Shown here: in pieces, positions 729 to 57,535 of the stretch
Position numbering within the stretch: the first letter of the stretch is position 1
Layout of the letters: each line of letters begins with the position of its first letter
Source: Nannocystis bainbridge
GTDB taxonomy: Bacteria > Myxococcota_A > Polyangia > Nannocystales > Nannocystaceae
DNA: 64,000 nucleotides
Assembly (NCBI RefSeq): GCF_028368995.1
Contig: NZ_JAQNDL010000003.1
Span: 864,001-928,000 of the forward strand
Reading direction: 5' to 3'
Position numbers and translations under genes: made by a program
The notes under the pieces: generated by a model
Told to the model about the DNA's origin: nothing
Databases searched by the model: none
The model's input: the letters and a program-made list of their open reading frames with translations, nothing else

Positions 729-794
729 CCACATGCCCTCCCGGACATGCCCTTATAGACCTGTCGCAAGGGACATGCATCTTCAGACATGTCC
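729..794. repeat. 14-bp-period GGACATGTCC-like palindrome array (5 units)
   Basis: Cores CATG 732, CATG 746, CCTG 760, CATG 774, CATG 788; just downstream of the ligA stop. Confidence 0.85.
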
Positions 795-809
795 ATCACA
801 CCACCCCGC

Positions 810-2861
810 TCACTCGAGCGAGCCGACCATCGCCAGGAATTCCTCCTCGCTGAGGATCTTCAGCGGCGCCCCGGCGGCGATCAGCTCTTCGGCCTTCTTC
901 TGCTTGCTCGACTTGGCCCCGCGGCCGGCGCCGACCACCAGGAACGACAGCGCCTTCGTCACCCCGGACGGGTTCTCGCCGCCGAGGGCTTGCACGCGGG
1001 CTTGCGCGACCTCGCGGGTGAACGCCTCGAGCGTACCGGTGAACACGAAGCTCTTGCCGGACAGCGCCGCGCCCTCGACCGGGGCTGGCGCCGCCTCGCC
1101 GGGCAGCACCGTCACGAACTCGAGCAGCCCGTCGATCAGCTCCTTGCGGGCCGCGAGGCCGTGCACGATCGCATCGGCGATCGCGTCCTTGATCCCGCGG
1201 ACCGCCGTGAGGTCCGCCTGCGTCAGCTCGCGGATCCGCTCGAGCGTGCGGAACTCGCCCGCCAGCAGCAGCGCGTTCTGCCGGCCCAGGTGCTCGATCC
1301 CCAGCGCTTGCAGGAACACCGCCAGCGGCAGCTCCTTGTGCCCCTCGATCTGCTCGATCAGGTTCTGCGCGCTCTTCTCGCCCAGCCGCTCGAGCCCCTG
1401 CAGATCGACCGCGCGCAGGCGGTAGTAGTCCGCCGGCGTGCTCAGGAGCTCGGCGTCGACCGCTGCGCCGATCACCTTCGGCCCGAAGCCTTGCAGGTCG
1501 ACCACCTTCGCGAAGTGCTCGAGCTCGCCGAGGCGGGCCTGCACGCATTTCTTCGGCTCGGCGCACCACAGGTTCTCGCCGTCGCGCTTCTTGCGGCGCT
1601 CGATCGGCCCGCCGCAGGCCGGGCACTGCGTCGGCAGCTCGAACGGGCGCGACGCCGGGCCCGACTCGACCACGCGCTCGACGTTGGGGATCACCCCGCC
1701 GCGGCGGGTCACCTCGACGCGGCAGTTGTGAGTCAGCCCGAGCGCCTCGAAGATGTTGAGGTTGTGCAGGCTGGCGCGGCCGATCCGCGCCCCGCTGAGC
1801 TCCACCGGCTCGAGCATGGCCACCGGCGTGATCACCCCGGTGCGGCTGACCGACCAGAGCACGTCGAGCAGGTCGGTCACGCCCGAGTCGCCCTGGAACT
1901 TGTAGGCGATCGCGTAGCGCGGGTGATGCCCGGTGAGGCCGAGGCGGCGCTGCTCCTTGACCGACGCCGTGCGGTACACGACCCCGTCGATCTCGTAGTC
2001 GAGCTCGGGCCGGTTGCGGGCCCAGCGATCGTAGCTGGCCTGCAGCCCCTCGCGGTCGACGAACTCGTGGTCGATGCCGCCGAGCCCGAGCTTCTTCAGC
2101 AGCTCGAACTTGTCGCGCTCGCTGTCGAATTCGGGGCCGATGATGTCGTAGGCGAAGAAGCTCAGGTGCGCGTTGCGGGTGTTCTTGCGCTCCTTCTGCT
2201 TGATCGACCCGGCGGTCAGGTTGCGCGGGTTGGCGAAGTCGCCCTTGAACTTGGCGAAGTCGCTGAGCTTCATGTAGAGCTCGCCGCGGACCTCGAGCTC
2301 GACCCCGCCGGAGTCGACCGTGCGCGGGATGTCCTTCACCTCGAGCGCGTTCATCGTGATGTCCTCGCCCTCGGTGCCCGAGCCGCGGGTGGCCGCCATC
2401 ACCAGCTTGCCCTTCTTGTCGTAGCGCAGGCTGCAGGCCACGCCGTCCATCTTCGGCATCACCAGGATCTCGCTGCTGAACTTGCCGGCCCAGCTCTGCA
2501 GGTCGGTCTCGCTGTAGCACTTCTCGAGCGACAGCATCGGCCGCAGGTGGCGGACCGCCGCGCCGAACCGCTGCTCCGGCGCCAGCTGCAGCGCCTCGTC
2601 GGCGTCCATCGCCGGCGCCTCGGCCGCCTGCGGACCCATCTCGTCGAGCACCGCCGCGTCGGGCCGGACCCGCTTGAGCCGCTCGACCAGTTGGTCGTAC
2701 AGCGTGTCCGGCAGCGTCGCCGCGTGGTCGTCCCAGTACTCCTTGTTGGCCCGCCGCACCAGCGCCTCGAGCTCGTCGGCCGTGAACGAGGGCAGCCTGG
2801 CGTTCACCGCGGCGGCGTCGAGGGTCAGCAGGTCGGAGGCGGGGGTCGTCGAGGCGCTCAT
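810..2861 (-). CDS. ligA: NAD-dependent DNA ligase
   Basis: PMLSL, KMDG adenylation motif, TRGSGTEGEDIT, EVRGE, FANPRN, YEIDGVV, AIAYKF, CPACG zinc finger, HhH repeats, C-terminal BRCT (FVFTGTL); ATG at 2861 chosen as start. Confidence 0.97.
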   Translation of the reverse strand: MSASTTPASDLLTLDAAAVNARLPSFTADELEALVRRANKEYWDDHAATLPDTLYDQLVERLKRVRPDAAVLDEMGPQAAEAPAMDADEALQLAPEQRFGAAVRHLRPMLSLEKCYSETDLQSWAGKFSSEILVMPKMDGVACSLRYDKKGKLVMAATRGSGTEGEDITMNALEVKDIPRTVDSGGVELEVRGELYMKLSDFAKFKGDFANPRNLTAGSIKQKERKNTRNAHLSFFAYDIIGPEFDSERDKFELLKKLGLGGIDHEFVDREGLQASYDRWARNRPELDYEIDGVVYRTASVKEQRRLGLTGHHPRYAIAYKFQGDSGVTDLLDVLWSVSRTGVITPVAMLEPVELSGARIGRASLHNLNIFEALGLTHNCRVEVTRRGGVIPNVERVVESGPASRPFELPTQCPACGGPIERRKKRDGENLWCAEPKKCVQARLGELEHFAKVVDLQGFGPKVIGAAVDAELLSTPADYYRLRAVDLQGLERLGEKSAQNLIEQIEGHKELPLAVFLQALGIEHLGRQNALLLAGEFRTLERIRELTQADLTAVRGIKDAIADAIVHGLAARKELIDGLLEFVTVLPGEAAPAPVEGAALSGKSFVFTGTLEAFTREVAQARVQALGGENPSGVTKALSFLVVGAGRGAKSSKQKKAEELIAAGAPLKILSEEEFLAMVGSLE

Positions 2862-3424
2862 GAGGGGCCGCGATGTTAACAAAACCGCGCCCGCACGTCC
2901 CCGGCTCGCTTTCGCGCGCACATGCGCGCGACGGGCCCTGCGAGGCCGCAGCGACCTGCGGGCGCGACGTGCGAACCCACGCCGCGAGGTCGATCCCTCG
3001 TGACCTCCGCGCCCGCGACCTGCCGCGGCGGCACGGCGACCGCTCGCGCCCCGGCCGACCCCGCCTCACCTCTCCCGTAGCGATGCGACCGGTACCGCGG
3101 CGATCCGTGAATCCTGGAACAGCCTTCCTTGTGATGCCGCGTACGATCCTCGTCGATGGCGTGCGCGTCACTCGGCGCCGCGACCTCGCACCTCCGTCAC
3201 ACGGGGTCGCGTTCATTGTCGCCAGCTCGAATGCCAATGTCTTGACTCCGCGTGACGGCGACGACAGCCAACGTGCGACCGCGGGTGCTCGCTCGGTCCA
3301 CGCGGTCGGCGGATCATGACAGCCGTGTCGTGCGGCCGCGCGCCGTCGCCCGCCGCGGCGCCGTGAAACCGCCCCGCAGCCCGTTTGGAGCCGTGGCACG
3401 CCTCTTGAAGAGCTCGGGGAACCT

Positions 3425-4759
3425 ATGACTTTCGCCGCCTGTCGTCCCCTTCGTCTCGCGCTTCTCACCCTTCCGCTCATGACCCTGGCTGTCGGCTGCG
3501 GCGATGATGCTCCGAGCGACGAAGGCAGCAGTGCCACGAATGCGTCCTCGCCCGTCGGCACTGAAGGCGGGAGCGGCGGCGAAGAGCCCGGGGACGGTTG
3601 GGGCACCGACGCGCCGGGCGACTCGGGCGGCGCCAGCACTTCCGGCGGCGATCCGGGCGGCGGCGGCACCGACAGCGGGCCCGACTCGGGCGGCGGTAGT
3701 GACACCGACACCGGCGGCGAGGAGCCGATCGATCCGGGCCAGTTGACGGCCGGCGAATGGCGGGACCTCGATCACTGGGACTTCTGGATCGGTCTGCTCG
3801 GCAATGACATGTGGTCGCCGATGCAAAACCTGTGGAAGCTCTACACCAGCCAGCGCTTCGCCGTGGTCGCGCTCTCCGAGCAGGCCCCGGTGGTCGACGC
3901 CGAGGTCGTCCTGCTCGGCGGCGATCAGAAGCCGCTGTGGAGCGCGCGCACCGACGTCCGCGGCCGCGCCGAGCTGTTCAACGGCCTCGTCGGCGCCGCG
4001 GGCGAGGGCCCGTTCACGATCGAGGTCAGCTCCGGCGAATCGTCCGTCACCCTCGCCGACGTCCAGCCGTTCGCCGGCGACCCCGCGATCGCCAACCTCG
4101 ACGCCGCCGAGGCGCCGGCCAAGGTGCTCGATCTGCTGTTCATGATCGACACCACCGGCTCGATGGGCGACGAGCTCGAGTACCTGCAGGTCGAGCTCGC
4201 CGACGTGATCTCGGAGATCCGCGACAACATCGGCCAGTCGTTCAAGCTCCGCCTCAGCGTCAACTTCTACCGCGACCACGACGACGAGTACGTGGTGCGC
4301 GAGTTCCCGTTCACCGAGGACATCGACGCCGCCCTGGCCGACCTCGCCGCGCAGAACTACGACGGCGGCGGCGACTTCCCCGAGGCCGTCAGCGAGGCGC
4401 TCGACGCGACGATCCACAACGCGCAGTGGAGCGCCTCGGCGGTGTCGCGCCTGGCCTTCCTGGTCCTCGACGCCCCGCCCCACGAGGGCGCGCAGGACCT
4501 GGCGCGGATCCAGGAGAGCGTCGTCGACGCGGCCGCCGCGGGCGTGCGCATCATCCCGGTCGCCAGCTCGGGCATCGACAAGAACACCGAGTTCTTCCTC
4601 CGCTTCATCGACATCGCCACCGGCGGCACCTACGTGTTCCTCACCGGCCACAGCGGCATCGGCGGCGAGCACATCGAGCCGACCATCGGTGAGTACCAGG
4701 TCGAGCTGCTCAACAGGCTGCTGGTCCGCCTCATCACCCAGTCGGTCCAGGTCGACTGA
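3425..4759 (+). CDS. VWA-domain lipoprotein
   Basis: Lipobox AVGC, Gly/Ser linker, MIDAS motif DLLFMIDTTGSMGDE, GGGDFPEAV, LVLDAPPH. Confidence 0.88.
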   Translation: MTFAACRPLRLALLTLPLMTLAVGCGDDAPSDEGSSATNASSPVGTEGGSGGEEPGDGWGTDAPGDSGGASTSGGDPGGGGTDSGPDSGGGSDTDTGGEEPIDPGQLTAGEWRDLDHWDFWIGLLGNDMWSPMQNLWKLYTSQRFAVVALSEQAPVVDAEVVLLGGDQKPLWSARTDVRGRAELFNGLVGAAGEGPFTIEVSSGESSVTLADVQPFAGDPAIANLDAAEAPAKVLDLLFMIDTTGSMGDELEYLQVELADVISEIRDNIGQSFKLRLSVNFYRDHDDEYVVREFPFTEDIDAALADLAAQNYDGGGDFPEAVSEALDATIHNAQWSASAVSRLAFLVLDAPPHEGAQDLARIQESVVDAAAAGVRIIPVASSGIDKNTEFFLRFIDIATGGTYVFLTGHSGIGGEHIEPTIGEYQVELLNRLLVRLITQSVQVD

Positions 4760-4916
4760 TCTGCCGCCTTTGCCCACGAGCACGCGCCATTTCGGCGCGT
4801 GCTCGCGTGCTCTTGCGATCCGCCGATCCTCGCCGAACGACGTACGCTCGCATCTTCGCCGCTTCGCCACGACGCGACCTCGTGCGGAAGTGCGGCCTGT
4901 GCCATCCTGGCGCTCG

Positions 4917-7900: not shown

Positions 7901-7946
7901 CGACGCGGACGTGGTGATCCGCTGGCAGTTCGCGTTCGGCCGGTGA
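4917..7946 (+). CDS. Large lipoprotein with ExbD/TolR-like segment(s) and a C-terminal AgmX/PglI (TonB-C-like) domain
   Basis: MPSSPRLAALAVLSAALVGSAC lipobox; C-terminus YCYARALADRPELAGAVVVDLAVSAAG...VERCII typical of AgmX/PglI; internal LELAIDATTPFAAVRPLLAAL resembles ExbD. Confidence 0.7.
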   Translation: MPSSPRLAALAVLSAALVGSACDRAGDSAPRDGAPAEAPATDPWTLTALESLGERAALVAVIRQDTWPATAARLAPLLPRSDAQRPARAALLLAGQPSVFLHMLFGTASSAAPPLPGLDPARPLVLALDEPALAAPAGLLAAELARRPGALPGLRHELVLPALDPAGLADALAQWFDGRGRQDPALAAGTAGARAWVLGSGDLAAVVPTADAVRIVALQHALAPAGTPIEAVPSALRGELLRASPSPAARTAGLAQAAASGEPLAVLLRPRVLPALLQWQRARADVDALAQVSHVEAGQRRRAALAGLLSCERALGDGAVDLEDWLFTATADPHGLRLRASADLTATGAQALAEPPVAREPLAMRGPAVASVAVRLTLADPPDPIAGRPIDAATALLDCQDVLPYMVFGTPLSALQGPRIHIPAAFTAQLALAGAADDLRGAIALDLAAAADTSLLQEFGRPAITNLGHEFTLQAELAGDRQRVFVGVGADPRVVFADTTEPSGLVAARLDLSVLAPLLRPFVPEALLGHRRAAFDLARDGSRLRGELVFDDGEAIAATRPEPATRGEPTPAPAPPSPGLVCARAFTSQAIDALDKARLPAAVPTGQSLDLLLAAGESSLTCVAADPTTAAHAPALRRMLPLALADLLADALRPSEAARVLAGPCEAGDPLACSRRAELAQLPDVTLPGLHSNCPDHHARHAYRLVLAGDRMALDDRIVDLAALQQQLAALADERDPSLELAIDATTPFAAVRPLLAALAQRPEIRLGIVASHDRETAPLYRIPTVTPQIAASSPTASQLSRMPAHQRVGALVLAADGATLRMRTGTTALGSYPYLHATTIEADARERPDNGLPPMVVATDTTPWSTVAVALAGTCRPHVLVDAADMQAQLGPPDRTVSILWDPHGPKPLSVVPKSRGPNNINSGLFSAKPRVEYCYARALADRPELAGAVVVDLAVSAAGALDSVKIVSSRLAHPEVERCIIDALVRHTSWSGADADVVIRWQFAFGR

Positions 7947-7967
7947 CATGACCCGAAGGACATGTCT
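7944..7967. repeat. 14-bp-period CATG array (2 units)
   Basis: CATG at 7947 and 7961, between convergent genes. Confidence 0.6.
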
Positions 7968-10365: not shown

Positions 10366-11514
10366 TCAGCGCCCGAACCGGAATTCGAGCCCCAGGGCCG
10401 CCCGCAGCGACACCGGCGCGATCGTGAACATGGGCCCGAGCCCGACCGCGCCGAAGGTCCCGCCGAGCAGCGGCACGCCGAGGTCGACGCCGAACCACAG
10501 CGCCAGCCACGGCCGCGGCGCCCACGCGACCGCGGGCCCGAACACCACCGCGAGCCACGCGATCCGGTCGGTCCGCCCGCCCGGGAACCCGACCCCGGCG
10601 CCGATCGCCTGCCCGGCCTCGAGCCCGCCGCACAGCGGAAACTCGACCCGCCCGGCCCGCGGCACCCCGCAGCCGCGCGCGCCGACGGTCCACAGCCGCA
10701 CCTTCGCCCCGGCCTGCGGATCGACCTGCGTGTACTCGGTCGTCGGCGCGCGGTAGAGGCCGGTGATCTCGACCCGCCAGCGCCGCCCCAAAAGCCCGCC
10801 CGCGAGCCCGAACGTCGGCCCCAAGCGCGGCATGCCCAGCGCCTCGAGCCCGCCCGCGACCCGCACGAACCCGCGCGGACGGGCGCTCGGATGAGCTGGC
10901 CTCCCGGACCTGTCCGCACGGACATCCTCCGCGGCCGGCTCCTCCGCGGCTGTCCCCGGGGACAGCTCACTCGCGCCCGGCGTCGTCGATGTCGCCGCGG
11001 ACACCTCACCCGCCGCGGCGTCGCCCGCATAGGTCCCCGAGGACATGTCACTCGCGCCCGGCGCAGCCTCGCCCGCGTCTGCCCCGGAGGACATGTCCAT
11101 CGGCGCAGGTCCGGAAGAACCTGTCCCCGAGGGCATGTCCACATCGCCAGCCTCCGTCACCGGCGCGGCCGGCACGATCGCCCCGTCGGCCGGGCGCGAC
11201 AGCACGCCCGGGTCGACCACCACCGCGGTCACGAACGCCGCCGCGTCGCCGATCTCCGCGCACGAGCGCCCGCGCAGGGTCCGCTTGCTGCGGCCCTCCG
11301 CCGCCTCGAGCTCGAGCGTGGCCGACCAGCGGCCCTCGCCCTCGCGGCGCACGTCGACGGTCACGCGGACCGGCCGCGACTCGGCGGCGCCGGCCAGGTA
11401 GCGCGCCAGGCTGTCCTGAAAGCCAGCTTGCGGACAGCGCGGATCGCCGCGCCAGGTCAGCTCGGCCGCTTGCGCAGGCAGCGCGGCGACGAGCGCGAGG
11501 ACGAGGGCTGTCAC
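10366..11514 (-). CDS. Secreted/outer-membrane protein accompanying the ECF-anti-sigma pair
   Basis: Signal peptide, small Cys-pair N-domain, acidic linker, amphipathic beta-strand C-domain ending LGLEFRFGR; start uncertain (GTG 11514). Confidence 0.72.
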   Translation of the reverse strand: MTALVLALVAALPAQAAELTWRGDPRCPQAGFQDSLARYLAGAAESRPVRVTVDVRREGEGRWSATLELEAAEGRSKRTLRGRSCAEIGDAAAFVTAVVVDPGVLSRPADGAIVPAAPVTEAGDVDMPSGTGSSGPAPMDMSSGADAGEAAPGASDMSSGTYAGDAAAGEVSAATSTTPGASELSPGTAAEEPAAEDVRADRSGRPAHPSARPRGFVRVAGGLEALGMPRLGPTFGLAGGLLGRRWRVEITGLYRAPTTEYTQVDPQAGAKVRLWTVGARGCGVPRAGRVEFPLCGGLEAGQAIGAGVGFPGGRTDRIAWLAVVFGPAVAWAPRPWLALWFGVDLGVPLLGGTFGAVGLGPMFTIAPVSLRAALGLEFRFGR

Positions 11515-29225: not shown

Positions 29226-29305
29226 TCCCATGTCCCTCAGGGCATGTCCATGAAAACATGCCCCGGTCGCCATGCCCGTACGGACATGCCCGATCGGACA
29301 TGTCC
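29226..29305. repeat. 14-bp-period GGACATGTCC-like array (6 units)
   Basis: CATG at 29229, 29243, 29257, 29271, 29285, 29299; between convergent genes. Confidence 0.92.
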
Positions 29306-35815: not shown

Positions 35816-36808
35816 ATGGGCTCGCACCTGCCCGCGCGCCTGTTCGCGTTCGCCGTCGGCCTCGGCCTCGAAGAGACAGGGCTGCGCGCGCGCACCGGCC
35901 TCGGCGCCGCCGCGCTCGCCGATCCCGACGCGCGCGTGCCCCTGTCCGGCGTCTACGAACTGATCGAGGCCGTGTGCGAGCGCCTCGGCGACGTCGCCAG
36001 CCTGCGCTTCATCGCCGGCATCGAGGCCGGCGACCTCGACGCGCTCGGCTTCCTCCTCAACACCTGCCCCGACCTCGGCGTCGCGCTCGCCCGCTTCGTC
36101 GCCTTTCAGGCCCTCTACAACGACGGCGAGCGGTTCGAGGCGATCGACGTCGGCGACGACGCCGTGGCCCTGCGCTACACCCCGTTCGGCCCGCCCCGGC
36201 GCGCGCACGCGTGGATGGCCGAGGTCACCTTCCTCGATTTCCTCGTCAACGGCCCGCGCTGGCTCGGCCGCGATCTCGAGGTGCGCGCAGTCAGGTTGCG
36301 GCGCGTGCCGACCGAGGATCTCGAGCTGCGGCGCGCGCTCGGCCCGGTCGAGTTCGGGGCGCTTTGCGACGAGCTGGTGCTGCCGCGCGCGGCATTGCAG
36401 GTGCGCATGCCGGGCGCAGACCCGGCGATGCAGGCGTTCTTCGAGCGATTCGCCCGCGACCAGCTCGCGCGTCTGCCGAAGGATGGCAGCCTGCGGGCGC
36501 GCGTGCGGGCGCAGGTGGCCGCGCGGCTGCACCAGGGCGCGCCGACCCTGCTCGAGCTCGCGGAAGCCCTCGGGCTGGCCCCGCGGACCCTCCAGCGCAA
36601 GCTGCAGGCCGAGGGCGAGACGCTCGCGGCCCTGGTCGACGCCGTTCGCCGCGAGCGGGCCGCCGCGCTGCTCGCCGGCCCGCAGCCGCTCTCGGAGGTC
36701 TCGTACCGGCTCGGCTTCTCGGCCCCGAGCGCCTTCTTCCGCGCGTTCCGCCGCTGGACCGGCGAGACCCCCGAGGCCTACCGCGTCCGGGTCCGCACAG
36801 GTCCCTGA
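35816..36808 (+). CDS. AraC-family transcriptional regulator
   Basis: LAPRTLQRKL...EVSYRLGFSAPSAFFRAFRRWTGETP; divergent from the Rieske gene. Confidence 0.92.
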   Translation: MGSHLPARLFAFAVGLGLEETGLRARTGLGAAALADPDARVPLSGVYELIEAVCERLGDVASLRFIAGIEAGDLDALGFLLNTCPDLGVALARFVAFQALYNDGERFEAIDVGDDAVALRYTPFGPPRRAHAWMAEVTFLDFLVNGPRWLGRDLEVRAVRLRRVPTEDLELRRALGPVEFGALCDELVLPRAALQVRMPGADPAMQAFFERFARDQLARLPKDGSLRARVRAQVAARLHQGAPTLLELAEALGLAPRTLQRKLQAEGETLAALVDAVRRERAAALLAGPQPLSEVSYRLGFSAPSAFFRAFRRWTGETPEAYRVRVRTGP

Positions 36809-36832
36809 GGACATGTCCCTCGGGACCTATCA
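36795..36832. repeat. Degenerate 14-bp-period array (3 units)
   Basis: CAGG 36798, GGACATGTCC with CATG at 36812, CCTA 36826; spans the AraC stop. Confidence 0.6.
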
Positions 36833-41736: not shown

Positions 41737-42034
41737 GGTGAAATCCTCGATCCGCAAGCGTGGGCCGACCTCCGACACCGGCAACCACGCGCCCCAGCCG
41801 ACCCCCGCGTATCCCCGGTCGTCCGCTCGCCCCACTCCATCGATTCCTGTAGAGACCGTCACGTCCCGCCGGCGGCGGCTCCGCGAGTCCGACGCCGGAG
41901 GGAGGATCTCCGCGAGCCTGCTCGGGCGCAGGCGCGGCCCCCGACACCGCCAAGGCCGCCCGGCCGGCCGCGGAATCTGGCCCTTACCGCGGCGAGCGCC
42001 GCGCCGCGGCATGGCCGCAGGTTTGGGTACAAAA

Positions 42035-42100
42035 GGACATGCTCGTTTGGACATGTCCTCGTGTACATGTTCCTTCAAACATGCCCGATCGGGCATATCT
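42035..42100. repeat. 14-bp-period GGACATGTCC-like array (5 units)
   Basis: CATG 42038, 42052, 42066, 42080 and CATA 42094; another in-phase CATG at 42010 (2 x 14 upstream). Confidence 0.88.
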
Positions 42101-45609: not shown

Positions 45610-48519
45610 GTGCAGGTGGTGCCGGTGGAGCTGGGCGACCGGTCATTCGCAGGACATGTCCCCGAGGACATGTCACGAATGGCGGTCGGCGACTTCCGGG
45701 CCGGGCTCGAGGTCGTCGGCGTGCGCGACCCGACCCTCGTCGCCACCCTCGACAACTGCCCCGAGGGCCGCTCGACCTGGCCGCCGCGCGACCTCCCCCC
45801 GCGCGGCGAGGCCCGCTACGAGTTCGGCGAGGTGTTCGCGTCCGGCGGCCTCGGCGTGGTCCGGCGCGCCGAGGATCGCCGCCTCGGCCGCGTCGTCGCC
45901 ATCAAGGAGCTGCTGCGCGACAGCCCCGACGCCCAGCGTCGGTTCGCCCGCGAGGCCGCGATCACGGCCCGCCTGCAGCACCCGAGCATCGTCCCGCTGT
46001 ACGACCTCGGCCACCGCGCCACCGGCGAGCCGTTCTACTGCATGAAGCTCGTCGACGGCGCCAGCCTCGACGCCAAGATCCAGGAGACCCGCGATCTCGG
46101 CGAGCGCCTGCGTCTGGTCGAGCACGTGATCGCCGTCGCCGACGCGATCGCCTACGCCCACGACCAGCAGGTCCTGCACCGCGACCTCAAGCCGGCCAAC
46201 GTGCTGATCGGTCGGTTCGGCGAGACGGTGGTGATCGACTGGGGCCTGGCCAAGGACCTGGCCGGTCGCAGCGACAGCGAGGCCGAGCAGACCACGCGCT
46301 CGGGCCAGCGCAGCCGCACCGGCGAGGACCTCACCGAGGTCGGGACGATCGTCGGCACGCTGCGCTACATGCCGCCCGAGCAGGCCCGCGGCGAGCCGGT
46401 CGACGCCCGCAGCGACATCTACGCCCTCGGCGCCCTGCTCTACCACGTGCTGTCCGGGCGCCCGCCGTTCGCCGAAGTCACCGGCGACGCCCTCGTCGCG
46501 CGGGTGAAGGCCGCCGATCTCGAGGACCTGCGCGAGCGGGTGCCCGGGGTCCCGCGCGAGCTGGCGGCGATCGCCCACCGGGCCACCGCGGCCCGCCCCG
46601 AGCAGCGCTACCCGACCGCCGCCGGGTTCGCCGAGGACCTGCGGCGGTTCCAGGCCGGGCGCGTGGTCTCGGCCCACAGCTACACCGTCGCCGAGCGGCT
46701 GCAGCGGTGGATGAAGCGCCAGCGGATCTTGCTGGCCTTCGCCGGCCTCGGCGTGGCCGCCAGCTTCTTCGCCTTCAAGGCCCACGAGGCCAGCCTCGAC
46801 CTTTGCAGCGGCGGGGCCGCGGAGATCGCCGCCGCCTGGGACGGGCCGCAGCGGCGGGTCGCGGCCGGCAACTTCGTCGCCGCCGGGGCAGCCTTCGCCA
46901 CCGAGGTGTGGCCACGCGTGGCCAGCTCGCTCGACGCCTACGCCGCCGCCTGGACCGCCCAGCACCACGAGGCGTGCGTCACCCATCGCCGCGGCGAACA
47001 GTCGGATCCGCTGTTCGATCGCCGCATGGCCTGCCTGGGCGAGCGCAAGGCCGCCCTCGCCGAGGCCACGGCCCTGCTCGGCGAGCGCGACCCCGCCGTC
47101 CCGCTGCACGCGCTCGAGCTGGTCGGCGGTCTGCCGGCGCTGAGCCGCTGCAGCGACGTCGCCGCCCTCGACGCCGCCGTCGCCCCGCCCGCCGACCCCG
47201 AGGCCGCGGCTCGCGTCGCCGCCGTGCGTGACGGCCTGGTCAAGCTCGCCGCCATGGGCCGCGTCGCCCGCACCCCGGCCGCGCTCGCGCTGGCCGACCG
47301 GCTCGTGCGCGCCGCCGAGGCCACCGGCCACGCGCCGACCCTCGCCGAGGTCCTGCTGCGCCGCGGCGAGCTGCGCCTCCACGACGACGCCGACGACGCC
47401 GCCGCGCGCCTGCAGCAGGCCCTGCTCACCGCCGTGCGCGCCGGCGCCGACGAGATCGCCGCCGAGGCCGCCGCCCTGCTGGTGTTCGTGCGCGGGCGCC
47501 AGGCCGACGGCACCGCCCGCGGCCTGGCCGAGCTGCCGATGGCCGAGGCCCTGGTCGCTCGCCTGCCGCCCCACGATCGCCTGCGCGGCCTCCTCCTCAA
47601 CAACGCCGCCGTGCTGGCCCGCTCGACCGGCGAGTTCACGAGAGCCCGCGGGTTGCTCGACGAGGCCCTCAAGGTCCAGCGCGCCGCGCCTGGCCCCGCG
47701 CGGGTCGAGGCCGCGTACACGCTGACCAACCTCGCCCTGGCGACCGACGACGCCGCGCCCCGCGAGGCCGCGCTGCGCGAGGCGCTGGCGATCCTCGAGC
47801 GCGAGCTCGGCCCGGCCCACGCGCGGACCATCGAGCTGCGCGTGCTCGCCAGCCTCCACACCCGCGATCCCCGGGTCGCGCACGCCCTGCTGCGCCCTGG
47901 CTGCGACGCCCTGGCCCGCTTCGCCCCCGGCGCCTCGCCGGACCGCGCCCGCTGCCTGGCCCACCTGGCCCACCACGCCGACGAAGCCGGCGACGACGAC
48001 GCCGCCACCGCCCTGCGCAGCGAAGCGCTCGGCCTCGTCGACCCGCATTCCACTCTGGTCGAGGACATCGTCCTGCGCGCCCACCTCGACCTCGCCGGCC
48101 TCGCCCGCAGCGGCCACGGCGACGCCGTCGAGCGCCTGCGCGGCGTGCTCGTCACCGACCTCGCCGGCGACGCCTGGTGGGTGCGCGAGCGCCGGGCCGA
48201 AGTGCTGCTGCTGCTCGGCCTCCACCTGCGCGCCAGCGGCGATCTGGCCGCCGCCCGCACCGCCCTGCAGGGCGCGATCGACGATTTCGTGGCGGTCGCC
48301 GCGATCGCCAGCAGCGTCGTCGCCGATCAACAGCTCGCGCGCGCCCGGGTGGCCCACGCAGAGCTCGCCGCCGCCGCCCCGACCGACCCTGCGTGGCGCG
48401 CCCTGGCCCTGCTCGACCTCGACGCGGCCGACCATTGGTACGCGGGCGCCGGCGAGGCCTACGCGTGGCGCAGGCACCCGCTGCGGGCCCTCCGGCGGCA
48501 ATTGACCGAGCCCGGCTGA
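45610..48519 (+). CDS. Ser/Thr protein kinase with TM and TPR repeats
   Basis: SGGLGVV, VAIK, HRDLKPAN, DWG, GTLRYMPPEQ; start uncertain (45610, 45670 or 45679). Confidence 0.92.
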   Translation: MQVVPVELGDRSFAGHVPEDMSRMAVGDFRAGLEVVGVRDPTLVATLDNCPEGRSTWPPRDLPPRGEARYEFGEVFASGGLGVVRRAEDRRLGRVVAIKELLRDSPDAQRRFAREAAITARLQHPSIVPLYDLGHRATGEPFYCMKLVDGASLDAKIQETRDLGERLRLVEHVIAVADAIAYAHDQQVLHRDLKPANVLIGRFGETVVIDWGLAKDLAGRSDSEAEQTTRSGQRSRTGEDLTEVGTIVGTLRYMPPEQARGEPVDARSDIYALGALLYHVLSGRPPFAEVTGDALVARVKAADLEDLRERVPGVPRELAAIAHRATAARPEQRYPTAAGFAEDLRRFQAGRVVSAHSYTVAERLQRWMKRQRILLAFAGLGVAASFFAFKAHEASLDLCSGGAAEIAAAWDGPQRRVAAGNFVAAGAAFATEVWPRVASSLDAYAAAWTAQHHEACVTHRRGEQSDPLFDRRMACLGERKAALAEATALLGERDPAVPLHALELVGGLPALSRCSDVAALDAAVAPPADPEAAARVAAVRDGLVKLAAMGRVARTPAALALADRLVRAAEATGHAPTLAEVLLRRGELRLHDDADDAAARLQQALLTAVRAGADEIAAEAAALLVFVRGRQADGTARGLAELPMAEALVARLPPHDRLRGLLLNNAAVLARSTGEFTRARGLLDEALKVQRAAPGPARVEAAYTLTNLALATDDAAPREAALREALAILERELGPAHARTIELRVLASLHTRDPRVAHALLRPGCDALARFAPGASPDRARCLAHLAHHADEAGDDDAATALRSEALGLVDPHSTLVEDIVLRAHLDLAGLARSGHGDAVERLRGVLVTDLAGDAWWVRERRAEVLLLLGLHLRASGDLAAARTALQGAIDDFVAVAAIASSVVADQQLARARVAHAELAAAAPTDPAWRALALLDLDAADHWYAGAGEAYAWRRHPLRALRRQLTEPG
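45652..45675. repeat. 14-bp-period CATG array (2 units)
   Basis: GGACATGTCC-CCGA-GGACATGTCA; CATG at 45655 and 45669. Confidence 0.7.
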
Positions 48520-48678
48520 CCGGCCCGATCGTCCGCCGCTCCCGCCTGCCGTTGCCAACTTGCGACTCGGTCCGCGGCCTGGACCGACGGGCCGCATGGG
48601 ACTCGAGCGTGCGCGCGACCATGGGTGGCGCGATCTCCTGGGGCCCGCATGCGCTCCGTACCGCGCGGCTCGTCCTCC

Positions 48679-49330: not shown

Positions 49331-49537
49331 CCGCTCCGCCCTCCTCGATCCTCCAGGCTCGTCCGCCGACCCGCGCGCTGCGGGCTCACCGCGACCTGAC
49401 CTTCCGGCCGACGACGCGGGCCCATTCGCCTGAGACCGCTCTGCGCGAACGGGGCCCGCAGACCGCAAATTCCGGGCTTCTGCCGCACAGATCCGCGCTC
49501 GCCGCCGATCTCGGCCACAGGGCCGCCGCCCGGAATA

Positions 49538-50128: not shown

Positions 50129-50168
50129 GCACCGGGGCGGCCGCGCCGCGGTCGCCCGATGACTGTTG

Positions 50169-50248
50169 GGACATGCCCTCCTGGGCATGTCCCAATCATC
50201 ATGTCCCTATCGACATGTCCTTTTGACCATGTCACATGGGGCATCTTC
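50169..50248. repeat. 14-bp-period GGACATGTCC-like array (6 units)
   Basis: CATG 50172, 50186, 50200, 50214, 50228 and CATC 50242; between convergent genes. Confidence 0.9.
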
Positions 50249-50269
50249 TGGCACCCCATCGACGCCGGC

Positions 50270-50746: not shown

Positions 50747-50858
50747 ACTCCTTCGCCACGGTATCACGGGCCCACCGACCGGATCGCCGCACTCGTAAAC
50801 AGCCGTGAGCGCCCGCGTCCGTGGATCGGCGGCTCGCCGGCAGGTACGCTGCGAGCCC

Positions 50859-51368: not shown

Positions 51369-51487
51369 TCACATGCCTCTTTAGCCATGTCCGAAGCGAC
51401 ATCTATGTAGAGCCCGGCACGTCCACTCCGCGCGGCCTCGACGCGGCGGCAACATGTCCACGAGGACATGTCTCTTCAGCCATGCAT
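51369..51487. repeat. Two 3-unit 14-bp-period CATG arrays
   Basis: CATG 51372, CATG 51386, CATC 51400; CATG 51453, 51467, 51481. Confidence 0.8.
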
Positions 51488-51664
51488 TGATTCGGCGGGA
51501 CCTACACGCAGCGCGGCATACCGCACGATGCAAGCCTGTGGATCGGGTCACGCGGCGGATTGCCCGGCGCGCGAGCTGATGAAGAATGGGATAAAGACCG
51601 CGGATATCGGCGCCCGGGGCAGAGCATGCGCCCGGGTGCTCCCTGCCGTCATCGGAGCTGTGCC

Positions 51665-52594: not shown

Positions 52595-52605
52595 GCGGTG
52601 CCTTC

Positions 52606-52685
52606 GGGCATGTCCGTTCGGACATGCCCCTCAGAAAATGTTCCGAAGGACATGGCCGTTCGCGCATGTCCTTCAAGCCATCCAG
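52606..52685. repeat. 14-bp-period GGACATGTCC-like array (6 units)
   Basis: CATG 52609, CATG 52623, AATG 52637, CATG 52651, CATG 52665, CATC 52679; between convergent genes. Confidence 0.88.
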
Positions 52686-52741
52686 CGAACGGACACCAGG
52701 GGCAGCGCCGCGGGGTCCGGCCCCGCGGGCGCTCCGGCTCG

Positions 52742-55261: not shown

Positions 55262-55655
55262 CGTCGTCGTCCTCCGCTTCGCCGGATCTCGCACCGAGCA
55301 GCTGCTTGAGGCGCGCGACGTCGTCCGGATCGACATCCTTGTCCTCGACCAGATGGCTGACGAGCGCCGACACGTCGCCGCCGAAGAAATAATCGGTGAC
55401 CCGCGACAGCATCGACCGCCGCACCTCGTCCTCGCTGACGAGCGCGCGATAGATGAACTGCCGCCCCTCGACGCGGTGCGTCACGGTGCCCTTCTTCTCG
55501 AGCCGCGACAGCATCGTCGACACCGTGGTCGGCGCGAGCTCGCGATCCTGCTCGAGCAAGGCCGTGTGGACATCGGTCGCGGTCGCCTCGCCGCGGTCCC
55601 ACAAGATCCGCAGCAGGCCGAGCTGCAGATCGCTGAGTTGGTGTGACTCGCTCAT
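55254..55655 (-). CDS. BlaI/MecI/CopY-family repressor
   Basis: LSDLQLGLLRILW...LAPTTVSTMLSRLEKKG...GRQFIYRA...FFGGD. Confidence 0.93.
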   Translation of the reverse strand: MSESHQLSDLQLGLLRILWDRGEATATDVHTALLEQDRELAPTTVSTMLSRLEKKGTVTHRVEGRQFIYRALVSEDEVRRSMLSRVTDYFFGGDVSALVSHLVEDKDVDPDDVARLKQLLGARSGEAEDDDDA

Positions 55656-55670
55656 GAACGACAGCCGTAG

Positions 55671-55695
55671 TACTACACGTGTAGTAAGGGGTCAA
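55671..55695 (-). promoter_or_regulatory. BlaI/CopY operator overlapping a sigma70-like promoter
   Basis: Perfect palindrome TACTACACGTGTAGTA (TACAnnTGTA core) at 55671-55686; TTGACC on the - strand at 55690-55695. Confidence 0.85.
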
Positions 55696-56006
55696 GCGAG
55701 GTGCAGCGGTCGCAACGCCCTACCCGGATGCCCGCCCAGGAGGCCCCCCGCGGCCCCTGGTGCCCACCTGCCGCCCGCGCGGAGTCGCGCAGAGCACCCC
55801 ACCTTCCTCGTTCGGACCGCATTGTCCGACCTCGAGTTTCACCCGGCTCGCCTTCCTCTTCATTGCGCGGTCGTCGAAGCACGCACCACACTTCGCGTTC
55901 GATCACCGCTCGCACACGGGCATCGACGAGCGCGCACGAGCCCATACCGCGTCCTGCCGCCCCGCCTCGCTTGTGGGCCTCGCGGCCCGCGGATACGCTG
56001 GCGATC

Positions 56007-57452
56007 GTGAACCCTCCCGGCGTTCCATACGACGATGTGGCTCTCGGGCTCAGGGCGTCCACCGGCCACCGCATCGCCGGCGCGCTGATGATCGTCAACG
56101 CGGCGCTGGTCCTGTGCGAGACCTACATGATGCCCGCGTCGACCCGCGGTGATCTGCTGACCGGCAGCTTCCCGATCGCCGCCCTCATCGACGTCGCGCT
56201 CGGCGTCAGCCTGCTGAGCGGCAGCACTGGCGCAGTCACCCTCAGCATCGTGCGCGTCGGCCTCGGCCTCGTCCTGTTCACCTTGCTCCGCGCGCTCACT
56301 GGCGAGTGGCTGGCCGCCGGCATGCAGGTCGGGGTCAGCCTCGCCTTTTTGCTGCTGCTCGTCGGTCACGCCAAGCGCGTGCGCATCGGCCTCGCCGCGC
56401 TGCTGTTCGGCCTCTACCTCGCGCTCGAGAGCTTCGGCCTCTACATCCTCGTCACCGGCCAGAACCCGCTCGCCCACGCCGTGATGAGCGCGCGCGGCGA
56501 GCTGACCGGCGAGCCGGCCGGCGACGTCGTCGGCGGGCTCGTCGACTACCGCCTGCGCGCCCCCTCGGACCGCTGGTATCTGCGCACCGACGAGGCCGCC
56601 CGGCGCGACAACCCGCTCGCCGATCGCTGGCTCGTCCGCCCCGACCTCGACGCCCACATCCTCATCATCGCCGAGCGCGTGCCCGACACCATGGTCCCGC
56701 TGGCGCCGTTCGTCGACACCGTCGTCGGCAACATGCGCAGCGCCGCCAGCAACTTCGAGCTGATCGACAGCGCGCCGCTGCCCGGTCACCTCGACACCGG
56801 CAAGCTGCTGCACATGCGCGCGAGCGTCGACGGCCAGGACGTCGAGTACCTCGCCGGCCTCGTCACCGCCTACGGCTCGGCCTTCCAGCTGATCGGCTTC
56901 ACCGGCGCGCGCAACTTCGCCGCCGTCGAGCCCGAGCTGCGCGCCGCGATCGAGTCGTTCGTCCTGCCCGCCAGCGCTGCCCTGCCGCAGGGGGCCGGGC
57001 GCGTGGTCGGCAGCGCCGCGCCGTACGCCGTCACCGCCCCCGACGCGCGCTGGATCACCGCCTCGCCCGAGATGCTGGCCCAGCAGAACCCCGACAGCGA
57101 CCGCTGGCTGGTGCGGCCCGACGTCGACGCCCACGTCACCGTCATGCTCGAGCCGCTCGGCGAGGAGACCGCCGTCGACGCGCTGATGCAGCAGCTGCCC
57201 GAGCGCCTGCGCAGCACCTGGCCGACGGCCACCCTGCAGCCCGCCGAGCCGCTCGCCGGCGACCACGCCCAGGGCCAGGTCCTGCACGCCAGCGTCGCCG
57301 GGGCCGCCGGCGCGTTCGAGATCGACTACGCGATCTACGTCGTCGGCCTGCGCGCTTTCCACCTCCTCGCCACCGCCCCCGCCCCCGCCTACCCCGGCGT
57401 GCAGGGCCAGCTGCGCCAGGTCCTGCGCTCCTTCGAGCCGCCCGGCGATTGA
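56007..57452 (+). CDS. Membrane protein with N-terminal TM bundle and two repeated extracytoplasmic domains
   Basis: About 5 hydrophobic helices, then the duplicated motif APxxRW...NPxxDRWLVRPDxDAH. Confidence 0.8.
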   Translation: MNPPGVPYDDVALGLRASTGHRIAGALMIVNAALVLCETYMMPASTRGDLLTGSFPIAALIDVALGVSLLSGSTGAVTLSIVRVGLGLVLFTLLRALTGEWLAAGMQVGVSLAFLLLLVGHAKRVRIGLAALLFGLYLALESFGLYILVTGQNPLAHAVMSARGELTGEPAGDVVGGLVDYRLRAPSDRWYLRTDEAARRDNPLADRWLVRPDLDAHILIIAERVPDTMVPLAPFVDTVVGNMRSAASNFELIDSAPLPGHLDTGKLLHMRASVDGQDVEYLAGLVTAYGSAFQLIGFTGARNFAAVEPELRAAIESFVLPASAALPQGAGRVVGSAAPYAVTAPDARWITASPEMLAQQNPDSDRWLVRPDVDAHVTVMLEPLGEETAVDALMQQLPERLRSTWPTATLQPAEPLAGDHAQGQVLHASVAGAAGAFEIDYAIYVVGLRAFHLLATAPAPAYPGVQGQLRQVLRSFEPPGD

Positions 57453-57455
57453 CCC

Positions 57456-57535
57456 GCGCATGTCCGCTCGAACATGCCCTCGAGGACATGCTCGATCGAG
57501 CATGTCCTCCAAGACATGCCCTTTAAACCATGCGC
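57456..57535. repeat. 14-bp-period GGACATGTCC-like array (6 units)
   Basis: CATG at 57459, 57473, 57487, 57501, 57515, 57529; begins a few bp after the stop codon. Confidence 0.92.

What the first reader, a model, noticed from the sequence alone, without database searches (positions are those of the whole stretch)
729..57535. Dispersed family of phased 14-bp arrays of a GGACATGTCC-like palindrome at gene 3' ends
Seen: ten loci at gene boundaries (first cores at 732, 7947, 29229, 36798, 42038, 45655, 50172, 51372/51453, 52609, 57459) carry 2-6 units of a degenerate 10-bp palindrome (about RRRCATGYYY) plus a free 4-bp spacer. The cores are exactly 14 bp apart. Spacers and flanks differ between units and loci, so spacing and core are conserved rather than whole-unit sequence, unlike a slippage satellite. 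Almost all arrays lie just downstream of a stop codon, and five lie between convergent genes. Inference: 14 bp is about 4/3 helical turn, so three units (42 bp) make about 4 turns, and several arrays have 3 or 6 units. That fits cooperative helical loading of a dimeric DNA-binding protein (nucleoid organiser, transcription roadblock or insulator). Alternatives are a REP/BIME-like RNA element or a methylation-linked (CATG) mark. I do not recognise it as a described element. The match to the p53 half-site consensus is probably coincidental.
Basis: partly seen in the sequence, partly recalled or inferred. Interest (0 to 1): 0.88.

Follow-up and report, generated by a model that had tools for sequence, protein, structure and literature searches.

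The report
Phased palindrome arrays at gene ends
The soil myxobacterium genus Nannocystis carries thousands of 14-base hairpin-forming units strung head to tail just after the stop codons of its genes; this is an undescribed variety of the repetitive extragenic palindromes known from other bacteria, and what reads it and what it does are still unknown.

Summary
CATG pairs 14 bp apart number 26 in the window (0-1 at 13/15 bp) and 3,736 genome-wide (72 at 13 bp). That makes about 2,000 arrays and 5,800 units in an 11-Mb Nannocystis genome.

The elementary module is not the 10-bp palindrome. It is the 14-bp inverted repeat TGYCC-N4-GGRCA (2,828 copies against 21 for the reversed control, and 23-93 at every other spacing). 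Abutting modules create the CATG palindrome and the 14-bp phase.

Arrays abut protein-gene stop codons, crowd convergent gaps, avoid divergent gaps and are rare after tRNA genes (3 of 102). Their positions are kept across six species while spacers and unit numbers change. Some sit in frame inside genes such as Lhr.

Arrays occur only in Nannocystis among the genomes searched. No Y1/RAYT transposase, Rfam family or publication matched.

Best reading, at moderate confidence: a REP/BIME-like 3'-end hairpin family with an unidentified sequence-reading partner. Earlier notes of this scan describe comparable phased foldback repeats, with other motifs, on other DNA.

The parts
729..794 (.). 5-unit array in the tandem gap just after the ligA stop codon (ligA = 810-2921, minus strand)
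   Evidence: An array follows the ligA stop in 6 of 6 core Nannocystis genomes, but the sequences cannot be aligned outside the motif.
7944..7967 (.). 2-unit array. The TGA stop of ORF 4689-7946 forms positions 1-3 of the first unit. Convergent gap.
11027..11140 (.). They lie inside a called ORF, 10366-11556 (-), whose reality I did not verify.
29226..29305 (.). 6-unit array 11 nt after the stop of the S41 peptidase gene (29316-30563, minus). Convergent gap.
   Evidence: an array follows the orthologous stop in 4 of 6 genomes. RNA fold: -51.7 kcal/mol, z -5.1.
36795..36832 (.). 3-unit array overlapping the stop of the AraC-type gene 35345-36808. The first unit has a CAGG core.
42007..42100 (.). 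5-6-unit array about 80 nt after the stop of ORF 42178-42903 (minus). Tandem gap.
   Evidence: 1-2 units at the same place in 3 of the 4 other genomes aligned there
45652..45675 (.). 2-unit array, i.e. one central module TGTCC-CCGA-GGACA, 146 nt after the stop of ORF 44229-45506
   Evidence: across species only the TGTCC-N4-GGACA module is kept; z -4.2
50169..50248 (.). 6-unit array filling the convergent gap between ORFs 49538-50128 and 50270-50887
   Evidence: present only in this genome, together with the SnoaL-like gene; z -5.7
51369..51406 (.). 2 units plus a degenerate third, directly after the stop of ORF 50805-51368
51450..51487 (.). 2 units plus a degenerate third, in the same tandem gap, upstream of ORF 51560-52594
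52606..52671 (.). 5-unit array 11 nt after the stop of ORF 51560-52594. Convergent gap with 52742-55336 (minus).
   Evidence: an array in 5 of 6 genomes after the orthologue of 52742-55336; z -6.0
57456..57535 (.). 5 units plus a sixth degenerate unit whose ATG is the first start codon of ORF 57530-58669. Tandem gap, 3 nt after the stop of ORF 55701-57452.
   Evidence: the orthologous array is present, in phase, in 6 of 6 genomes with different spacers; z -6.6

Best explanation
The ten loci belong to one genome-wide family of extragenic palindromic repeats, found as arrays only in Nannocystis.

Anatomy. The elementary module is a 14-bp inverted repeat, TGYCC-N4-GGRCA: 5-bp arms and a free, A/T-enriched 4-nt spacer. 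Modules abut head to tail, so the arms of neighbours fuse into GGRCA|TGYCC.

How I think it works (like REP/BIME elements):
1. The array is transcribed as the 3' tail of the mRNA whose stop codon it abuts, from both sides where genes converge.
2. It folds into one or several hairpins with stems of about 10 bp and 4-nt loops.
3. These act as a 3'-end barrier against read-through and/or 3'-to-5' exonucleases.
4. At the DNA level, arrays grow, shrink and are homogenised by whole-unit slippage and by fold-back (inverted) copying.

The strict N4 spacing and the identity of CATG and GG..CC persist between species while the spacers randomise. This implies an extra partner that reads the sequence, either a binding protein or a mobilising protein. 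I could not identify it.

Shown: anatomy, statistics, distribution, positional conservation, growth modes, fold potential.
Inferred: transcription, barrier function, and the partner.
For: Family and module:
- 3,736 CATG pairs at 14 bp against 72 at 13 bp.
- TGYCC-N4-GGRCA occurs 2,828 times against 21 for the reversed control, and 23-93 times at spacings 0-3 and 5-15.
- It is the top inverted 5-mer pair in the genome (1,987 against a median of 5.5).
- Arrays end in half-units. The inner half of the pseudo-unit just outside an array matches at T .46, G .66, T .31, C .55, C .53, while the outer half is at background.

Placement at 3' ends:
- Of 801 arrays with 3 or more units, 679 are intergenic. 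Their gaps are convergent 376, tandem 273, divergent 29, against a gap background of 1326/3469/1171.
- In tandem gaps the array starts mostly 0-20 nt after the upstream stop, and a median of 182 nt before the next called start.
- The stop codon sits in register with the lattice.

Hairpin potential:
- 837 of 1,130 predicted hairpin loops centre on the spacer.
- Mean MFE runs from -13 kcal/mol (2 units) to -48 kcal/mol (7 units).
- The six folds of five window arrays score z -3.6 to -6.6.

Complementarity beyond the motif:
- Unit-type successions AC->GT 226 (163 expected) and GT->AC 186 (137 expected), while AC->AC is 178 (178 expected).
- Watson-Crick pairs between adjacent units: 2,863 against 2,668 +/- 25 with shuffled partners.
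- Flanking free spacers pair at .35 against .28 expected (p 7e-21), and at .64 against .30 next to perfect unit pairs.

Weak bias towards the sense strand:
- G at position 3 and T at position 8 are enriched on the sense strand (p 6e-5).
- Sense MFE -21.85 against antisense -20.55 (p .0016).

Constraint:
- Orthologous arrays are in place after ligA (6 of 6 genomes), at 57456 (6 of 6), after the orthologue of 52742-55336 (5 of 6) and after the S41 peptidase gene (4 of 6).
- 37 of 52 arrays are matched in 340 kb of synteny.
- Identity between G000 and G007: CATG .85-.96, flanking triplets .63-.79, spacers .48-.64 (14 arrays).

Growth:
- A 14-nt indel between species.
- 14-, 28- and 42-nt higher-order repeats.

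REP parallels, from the abstract and passages of PMC3733652: REPs lie downstream of ORFs between unidirectional and convergent genes; some lie inside replication and repair genes; some are reiterated in tandem; the CGTC class has no dedicated transposase.
Against: - No expression data exist for this organism in what I could reach.
- There is no T-run after arrays. Only 1 of about 8 arrays in window 41000-60000 is flagged as terminator-like.
- Arrays follow only 3 of 102 tRNA genes, so this is not a general terminator.
- Pairing is mediocre. The modal adjacent pair has 3 of 6 variable positions complementary. Only 5-18% of arrays hold a perfect stem of 10 bp or more, against 2-7% in the null.
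- C.A mismatches (631) outnumber G.T (470) in unoriented counts.
- The sense-strand GU>AC excess is also present with shuffled partners, so it reflects composition.
- Spacer 4-mers show no strand asymmetry.
- Hairpin stability alone does not explain why N3 and N5 are not tolerated, or why CATG in particular is kept.
- Arrays are kept in frame inside the lhr gene in 6 of 6 core genomes. A strong barrier there would be harmful.
Confidence: 0.4

Rival explanations
1. Protein lattice on double-stranded DNA. A dimeric sequence-specific protein binds each TGYCC-N4-GGRCA site, whose half-site centres are 9 bp apart. It oligomerises along abutting sites every 14 bp and marks gene ends as a roadblock, insulator, or manager of supercoiling or the nucleoid.
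For: - Spacing is extremely sharp: N4 = 2,828 against 23-93 at all other spacings 0-15.
- There are no phase slips in or next to arrays: 14 bp = 3,604 against 13 bp = 18 and 15 bp = 26.
- Arm sequence is kept between species while spacers randomise.
- Intra-palindrome covariation is absent. Flank covariation is absent around 1,070 solitary modules beyond the first position.
- Spacer 4-mers are symmetric with respect to transcription.
- About 300 solitary modules sit deep inside ORFs, where no 3'-end role applies.
- The module is enriched 20-130-fold in all 11 Nannocystis genomes and 5-13-fold in two sister genera, as if a conserved reader existed.
Against: - No candidate protein was found.
- There is excess complementarity between neighbouring arms and between the free flanking spacers. 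A symmetric dimer does not require this.
- The form in the divergent relative G009 has 10-bp arms, which looks like a hairpin.
- Three units are not preferred.
- Arrays inside lhr would block its own transcription.
- There are thousands of sites with no regulatory logic.
Confidence: 0.3
2. Selfish or purely mutational by-product. A self-complementary module spreads, amplifies and is homogenised by slippage and quasi-palindrome template switching (or by an unrecognised mobilising enzyme). It survives only where it does no harm: after stop codons, and in frame in tolerant loops. It has no function for the host.
For: - Whole-unit indels and 14/28/42-nt higher-order duplications.
- Inverted symmetry reaches into the free spacers, and is strongest next to perfect (young-looking) unit pairs.
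- Arrays fill convergent gaps and butt against stop codons.
- Depletion from divergent (promoter) gaps.
- In-frame intragenic copies.
- Numbers rise stepwise from sister genera to divergent and then core Nannocystis.
- Presence and absence differ between species at some loci.
Against: - Orthologous copies keep CATG (.85-.96) and the phase, while spacers (.48-.64) diverge. Neutral decay should hit all positions and create N3 and N5 modules, which are at background.
- No Y1/RAYT transposase in 11 of 11 Nannocystis genomes searched.
- No transposase in the one densest cluster examined.
- No clean recent insertion in 340 kb compared with a sister species.
- Depletion after tRNA genes (3 of 102) is not predicted by mere tolerance.
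Confidence: 0.2
3. DNA-uptake-sequence-like or methylation-linked mark. The motif is over-represented because a competence receptor or a CATG-specific methyltransferase/restriction system drives or uses it.
For: - The motif is specific to one genus, very abundant and equal on both strands, with inverted pairs at gene ends and copies in genome-maintenance genes. These resemble what I recall of Neisseria DUS.
- CATG is the most conserved part.
Against: - Neither idea explains the strict N4 spacing, the arrays or the half-unit ends.
- CATG overall is not avoided. The observed count is 39,940, against roughly 29,000 expected from base composition by my own arithmetic.
- Solitary modules lack CATG altogether.
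- Nothing was tested directly.
Confidence: 0.06

Closest known systems
REP / BIME elements (repetitive extragenic palindromes), including the GTAG- and CGTC-tagged super-families (PMC3733652: abstract and passages read)
   Same: - Short G+C-rich palindromes in thousands of copies, specific to a species or genus.
- Located downstream of ORFs between unidirectional and convergent genes.
- Often clustered or reiterated in tandem.
- Occasional copies inside replication and repair genes.
- The paper mentions a family with only 5-bp stems, found through a tandem-repeat database.
- CGTC REPs lack a dedicated transposase.
   Different: - There is no unpaired GTAG or CGTC tag (consensus).
- No Y1/RAYT gene in any of 11 Nannocystis genomes.
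- Modules are only 14 bp, abut with no linker, and share arms with their neighbours. This gives a strict 14-bp lattice with free spacers.
- The register is coupled to the stop codon.
Rickettsia palindromic elements (RPE), which insert in frame into protein genes (recalled, not read here; 'RPE' appears only in the abbreviation list seen)
   Same: Palindromic repeats tolerated in frame inside conserved genes. Here a segment of about 16-24 aa encoded by 4 units sits in the Lhr helicase of 6 of 6 core genomes, and is absent from G009 and from 4 outgroup genomes.
   Different: As I recall, RPEs are 100-150 bp single elements, not arrays of 14-bp units. Here intragenic copies are a minority (122 of 801 arrays with 3 or more units lie in called genes).
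Tandem operator arrays bound cooperatively by small dimeric repressors (MetJ metboxes, omega-protein heptads, ParR/parC iterons). Recalled, not read here.
   Same: Short (pseudo)palindromic units repeated head to tail at a fixed phase, with 2 to about 10 units.
   Different: Those occur at one or a few promoters or centromeres per replicon. Here there are about 2,000 arrays, at gene 3' ends, depleted from divergent (promoter) gaps.
Intrinsic (Rho-independent) terminators, and conserved terminator-hairpin repeats of high-G+C bacteria (the latter recalled)
   Same: G+C-rich hairpins just after stop codons that can act in both directions between convergent genes.
   Different: - No T/U run.
- Rare after tRNA genes.
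- The stem sequence, not just the pairing, is conserved.
Phased short-unit foldback repeats at gene ends noted earlier in this scan (e1-752378: CACGGAC units 10 bp apart; e1-2211246 and e1-3809849: heptad repeats)
   Same: Short units at a fixed phase that build foldback-capable blocks after stop codons and between convergent genes. They turn over quickly, and no mechanism is known.
   Different: The motif, period (14 against 7 or 10), organisms and architecture all differ. Here the unit itself is a palindrome, so there is no 'palindrome of arrays'. These are AI notes that I did not re-test.

Membership tests
REP (repetitive extragenic palindromes) | Small palindromic (stem-loop) repeat, 20-40 bp, in high copy | tested here: met
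   Two units plus a spacer make a 24-nt stem-loop. There are 2,828 exact modules and about 5,800 CATG units. The single module (14 bp) is shorter than the stated range.
REP (repetitive extragenic palindromes) | Extragenic, mostly downstream of ORFs between unidirectional and convergent genes | tested here: met
   679 of 801 arrays with 3 or more units are intergenic. Their gaps: convergent 376, tandem 273, divergent 29. The modal distance to the stop is 0-20 nt. Gene calls are my own crude ones.
REP, GTAG/CGTC super-families | An unpaired GTAG or CGTC motif at one end of the stem-loop | tested here: not met
   The flank consensus is ..acCTGTCC N4 GGACAGgt.. or ..GGACATGTCC... No such tag is present.
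REP/RAYT system | A Y1 (RAYT) transposase gene in the genome, flanked by the repeats | tested here: not met
   PF01797 gives 0 matches in G000 (90% complete) and in the 10 other Nannocystis genomes. The same search hits 6 of 14 other relatives and 6 of 14 control genomes. The one densest array cluster I examined holds ordinary genes.
Intrinsic terminator | G+C-rich hairpin followed by a U run | tested here: not met
   T frequency after arrays is .21 in the first 5 nt and then .13-.19. 1 of about 8 arrays in window 41000-60000 is flagged.
Slippage minisatellite / VNTR | Whole units, spacer included, are near-identical copies of each other | tested here: not met
   Adjacent spacers are identical in 4.5% of 1,670 pairs (1.1% for random pairs). 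A minority of arrays are recent 14/28/42-nt duplications, and a 14-nt indel was seen between species.
MITE | Terminal inverted repeats around a family-specific interior, target-site duplication, fixed length | tested here: inconclusive
   Arrays have a variable unit number and no interior sequence. I found no clean filled and empty site pair in 340 kb of synteny from which to look for target duplications.
Rfam RNA families | A match at the gathering score | tested here: not met
   0 matches in the 64-kb window, both strands.
Operator or iteron array of a DNA-binding protein | Demonstrated or predicted cognate protein; fixed spacing; half-site conservation without pairing covariation | tested here: inconclusive
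   Spacing and half-sites are met. Covariation between arms and between flanking spacers is present but modest. No protein was identified.
DNA uptake sequence | A competence receptor that prefers the motif; uptake bias | not testable with these tools
   Only distribution features could be seen.

The most novel reading that the evidence does not exclude
An unknown sequence-specific protein reads TGYCC-N4-GGRCA lattices that punctuate the ends of roughly a third of all protein-coding genes in Nannocystis. This would be a genome-wide, protein-bound 'gene-end mark': an insulator, a roadblock, or a manager of supercoiling. The strict 14-bp phase would then reflect cooperative oligomerisation. The system would have grown stepwise from solitary sites in sister genera to arrays in the core clade.
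Probability: 0.25. Interest if true: 0.85.

Novelty: new variant of a known kind. Interest (0 to 1): 0.55.

Why it matters
In these 11-13-Mb genomes, more than a third of convergent gaps and about a sixth of tandem gaps hold at least one exact module. Whatever reads the module therefore touches the 3' end of a large share of all protein-coding genes.

The family separates three constraints cleanly: arm sequence, an exact 4-nt spacing, and free spacers. This makes a direct test possible of whether REP-like elements act as RNA hairpins, as DNA sites for a protein, or as self-propagating palindromes. That question is still open for REPs in general.

The family also shows a plausible path from a solitary 24-nt hairpin to phased arrays, through the arm becoming self-complementary (CCTG/CAGG changing to CATG).

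Practically, the arrays are landmarks for gene ends, likely sources of assembly and PCR artefacts, and candidate variable loci for typing Nannocystis strains.

Tried and rejected
- RNA evidence: no RNA holder listed for window 49500-58700.
- Viral contigs: 0 matches to a 3-unit pattern.
- Rfam: nothing in the window.
- RAYT/Y1 transposase: none in the genus.
- Densest array cluster: I fetched four clusters and examined one (L201). It holds an amine oxidase, an ECF sigma factor, a thioredoxin, an Rrf2 regulator and an OYE gene, with no mobilising enzyme. The other three were not examined.
- Three-unit (42-bp) quantisation: not seen.
- Hairpins centred on CATG: spacers on either side of a unit are not complementary (.28 against .28). 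Adjacent spacers are reverse complements in 2.2% of pairs against 1.1% for random pairs.
- Sense-strand G.U test: the GU>AC excess (760 against 508) is also present with shuffled partners (822 against 593), so it reflects composition. In flank pairs GU is 41 against AC 32, not significant.
- Stop-proximal against distal hairpin quality: no difference (3.39 against 3.25, p .27).
- CsrA sponge idea (a GGA in each unit): CsrA is present, but the idea was not tested further.
- Two-anchor orthologue mapping failed for several window loci, because gene content differs. One-anchor tails were used instead.
- Of the phased pairs listed at up to 3 mismatches, those at 6128, 9336, 10906 and 43713 look weak (at most one exact CATG each), and I do not count them as members.
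- My ORF caller is crude (coding fraction .76-.79, first start codon taken). All context counts are approximate, and the 'inside gene' class partly reflects over-extended ORFs.
- I searched the literature for a prior description and found none: 'GGACATGTCC' (47 papers; the 20 listed are eukaryotic studies, mainly p53, and none is about a bacterial repeat); Nannocystis with intergenic/repeat/palindrom; 'repetitive extragenic palindrom' with myxobacteri (2 papers; passages); module spellings (0 papers); Nannocystis with genome and repetitive (passages of PMC5658511).

Full report
**1. Observation**

The window is G000:C2:864001-928000 of an 11.05-Mb, 71.5% G+C assembly in 5 contigs. Two arrays at 11041 and 11089-11140 were missed.

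In the window, CATG pairs at 14, 28 and 42 bp number 26, 18 and 16, against 0-1 at 13 and 15 bp. Genome-wide the counts are 3,736, 2,073 and 1,586, against 72 at 13 bp and 79 at 16 bp. Four other palindromic tetranucleotides show no such peak, and CTAG is too rare to tell.

Chains of exact CATG at 14 bp give 2,066 arrays and 5,802 units. Sizes fall monotonically from 2 units (1,265 arrays) to 12 units (1 array). The logo is GGACATGTCC plus four spacer positions that are 53% A+T in a 71.5% G+C genome.

**2. What the unit really is**

Just outside the terminal exact unit, the next pseudo-unit keeps its inner half (T .46, G .66, T .31, C .55, C .53). Its outer half is at background. So arrays end in half-units.

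The module TGYCC-N4-GGRCA occurs 2,828 times. The reversed control occurs 21 times, and every other spacing from 0 to 15 gives 23-93. An unbiased scan of all inverted 5-mer pairs ranks TGTCC-N4-GGACA first in the genome (1,987 against a median of 5.5).

1,070 modules are solitary, with the consensus acCTGTCC-N4-GGACAGgt.

The 10-bp palindrome is therefore the junction of two abutting 14-bp modules, and the 14-bp phase is the module length. Phase slips are absent: near arrays, consecutive CATG distances are 3,604 at 14 bp, 18 at 13 bp and 26 at 15 bp. Units degenerated by substitution are common (403 pairs at 28 bp have no CATG in the middle).

**3. Where it sits**

These counts rest on a crude GC3-based ORF caller.

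- 679 of 801 arrays with 3 or more units are intergenic. Their gaps are convergent 376, tandem 273 and divergent 29, against a gap background of 1326/3469/1171.
- At least one exact module lies in 483 of 1,326 convergent gaps, 533 of 3,469 tandem gaps and 106 of 1,171 divergent gaps.
- In tandem gaps arrays begin mostly 0-20 nt after the upstream stop, and a median of 182 nt before the next called start.
- The stop codon is in register with the lattice. TGA tends to occupy unit positions 6-8 (cTGAcc, imitating TGTCC), positions 1-3, or the spacer.
- Only 3 of 102 tRNA genes have an array within 150 nt downstream.
- Long arrays fill whole convergent gaps.

**4. Who has it**

LigA relatives place the genome in Nannocystis, at 93-96% identity to five named species or strains.

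A 3-unit pattern gives these counts:
- 217 hits here.
- 95-146 hits in the five other large genomes of the genus.
- 0-7 hits in five smaller or more divergent genomes of the genus.
- 0 hits in 30 genomes of other genera of the family and class.
- 0 hits in 400 further genomes of the phylum.
- The reversed control gives 0 everywhere.

The module itself reaches further (counts given as module/control):
- Core genomes: 2,271-2,846 / 21-34.
- Divergent Nannocystis: 170-1,071 / 8-32.
- Two sister genera: 246/47 and 233/18.
- All others: at most about 5-fold, mostly 1-3-fold.

In the divergent G009 the modules are solitary. Their consensus is ggacCTGTCC-N4-GGACAGGtc, a stem-loop with 10-bp arms and a CCTG/CAGG centre. 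This suggests a path: a solitary hairpin, then an arm centre that became self-complementary (CATG), then concatenation into arrays.

**5. Evolution at orthologous sites**

An array follows the ligA stop in 6 of 6 core genomes, but the sequences align only at the motif, and the DNA beyond is unrelated.

- The 57456 array is present in phase in 6 of 6 genomes, with different spacers.
- The gene ending at 52742 has an array in 5 of 6 genomes.
- The S41 peptidase gene has one in 4 of 6.
- The 50169 array is unique to this genome.
- 3' regions without arrays align well.

In 340 kb that is colinear with G007, 37 of 52 arrays have an array at the matching place. 5 lie in aligned DNA without an exact array, of which 4 are visibly degenerate copies. 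10 lie in unalignable gaps.

Over 14 alignable arrays, identity is .85-.96 for CATG.63-.79 for the flanking triplets and .48-.64 for spacers. This sample is small, and the alignment may favour CATG.

Unit number changes by whole units. Some arrays are recent 14-, 28- or 42-nt duplications.

**6. Inside genes**

Some arrays lie in continuous ORFs with coding-type GC3 on both sides, including Lhr, DnaE, a Mur ligase and a YkuD protein.

For Lhr I checked relatives. A 4-unit array encodes an insert of about 16-24 residues after the SAT motif in 6 of 6 core genomes. It is absent from G009 and from 4 outgroup genomes. The four CATG cores are kept at the DNA level in the four core genomes whose DNA I read, while the spacers differ.

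About 300 solitary modules also lie deep in ORFs. 36 of them are explained by a CPxGQ protein motif.

**7. Structure tests**

*Fold prediction.* Predicted RNA folds put 837 of 1,130 hairpin loops on the spacer, with unit i pairing unit i+1 in register. Window arrays fold with z -3.6 to -6.6.

*Pairing within units.* Positions within a palindrome do not covary.

*Pairing between adjacent units.* Adjacent units are more complementary than shuffled partners (2,863 against 2,668 +/- 25 Watson-Crick pairs). Reverse-complement successions are enriched while same-type successions are not.

*Pairing in the free spacers.* This is the cleanest test. The free spacers that flank a unit pair are complementary at .35 against .28 expected (p 7e-21), and at .64 against .30 when the unit pair is perfect. 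A control with random partners sits at expectation.

So inverted symmetry extends beyond the motif in a subset of arrays. That fits either selection for pairing or growth by fold-back copying.

*Limits.* Only 5-18% of arrays hold a perfect stem of 10 bp or more. C.A mismatches are as common as G.T. Spacer words show no strand bias. The sense-strand effects are small. There is no T run.

**8. Known families**

- No Rfam match.
- No Y1/RAYT transposase in 11 of 11 Nannocystis genomes, while the controls respond.
- No transposase in the one dense cluster examined.
- No match in viral contigs.
- Literature searches found no description.

The REP survey PMC3733652 (abstract and passages read) describes the same genomic habits: downstream of ORFs, between unidirectional and convergent genes, reiterated in tandem, copies in replication and repair genes, and a class without a transposase. 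But it defines its super-families by an unpaired GTAG or CGTC tag, which is absent here.

**9. Reading**

The distribution, fold potential, intragenic copies and lineage restriction make this a REP/BIME-like family. Its architecture is new: 14-bp modules that share arms, a strict lattice, free spacers, and coupling to the stop-codon register.

I commit, at 0.4, to a transcribed 3'-end hairpin barrier, with propagation at the DNA level by slippage and fold-back copying.

Hairpin energetics cannot explain two things: why N3 and N5 are at background, and why CATG and GG..CC persist at orthologous sites while spacers randomise. If one assumes the usual ratio of roughly one indel per 10-20 substitutions (general knowledge, not measured here), neutral spacers this diverged should have produced many N3 and N5 modules. 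A partner that reads the sequence is therefore implied. This keeps the protein-lattice reading alive (0.3). A function-free palindrome drive remains possible (0.2).

**10. Verdict**

The finding is a new variant of a known kind, of moderate-to-high interest, because it offers a clean system for testing what REP-like elements do.

Noticed in passing
window 16361-19544 (+): Adjacent genes with a SIR2-like domain (PF13289) and a STAND NTPase (nSTAND1, PF20703) plus TPR. This looks like a defence-type gene pair.
   Followed up: no
window 33441-34664 (+): An ORF with a T6SS Tle1-like phospholipase catalytic domain (PF09994, E 2.6e-21).
   Followed up: no
window 57526-57535: The sixth, degenerate unit of the 57456 array supplies the first ATG of ORF 57530-58669. 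Elsewhere too, array CATGs offer in-frame ATGs just upstream of signal-peptide-like or lipobox-like N-termini. Arrays may sometimes donate start codons.
   Followed up: no
window 11027-11140: Two arrays lie inside a called 396-aa ORF (10366-11556, minus strand, no Pfam match). Either the ORF call is over-extended or this is another intragenic array.
   Followed up: no
L101 (G000:C3:1245066-1248314), L098 (G000:C1:873618-874859), L097 (G000:C1:2687646-2690384): DnaE (the array falls within the PHP-domain region), a Mur ligase and a YkuD transpeptidase carry 4-unit arrays inside apparently continuous ORFs. Unlike Lhr, these were not compared with outgroups.
   Followed up: partly
G013:C13:1500001-1900000 (L177-L196): This sister genus has its own sharply spaced inverted pair, AGCTC-N6-GAGCT (22 copies in 400 kb against a median of 0 at other spacings). 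It may be a different 'dialect' of the same kind of element.
   Followed up: no
G000 genome-wide: 36 solitary modules in reading frame 0 encode C-P-x-G-Q inside Cys-rich repeats. Part of the intragenic module excess is therefore a protein motif, not a DNA element.
   Followed up: partly
G000:C3:1379002-1379157 (L205): One CsrA gene is present (82.9 bits). Every unit starts with GGA, often preceded by A or G, so transcribed arrays would carry many CsrA-like GGA motifs. Not tested.
   Followed up: no
G000:C1 bins at 0.5, 1.1, 1.2 and 1.8 Mb; C2 bins at 1.1, 1.8 and 2.8 Mb; C5 bin at 0.4 Mb: These 100-kb bins hold 8 or fewer modules, against a median of 22-32. They may be recently acquired or otherwise atypical regions.
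   Followed up: no
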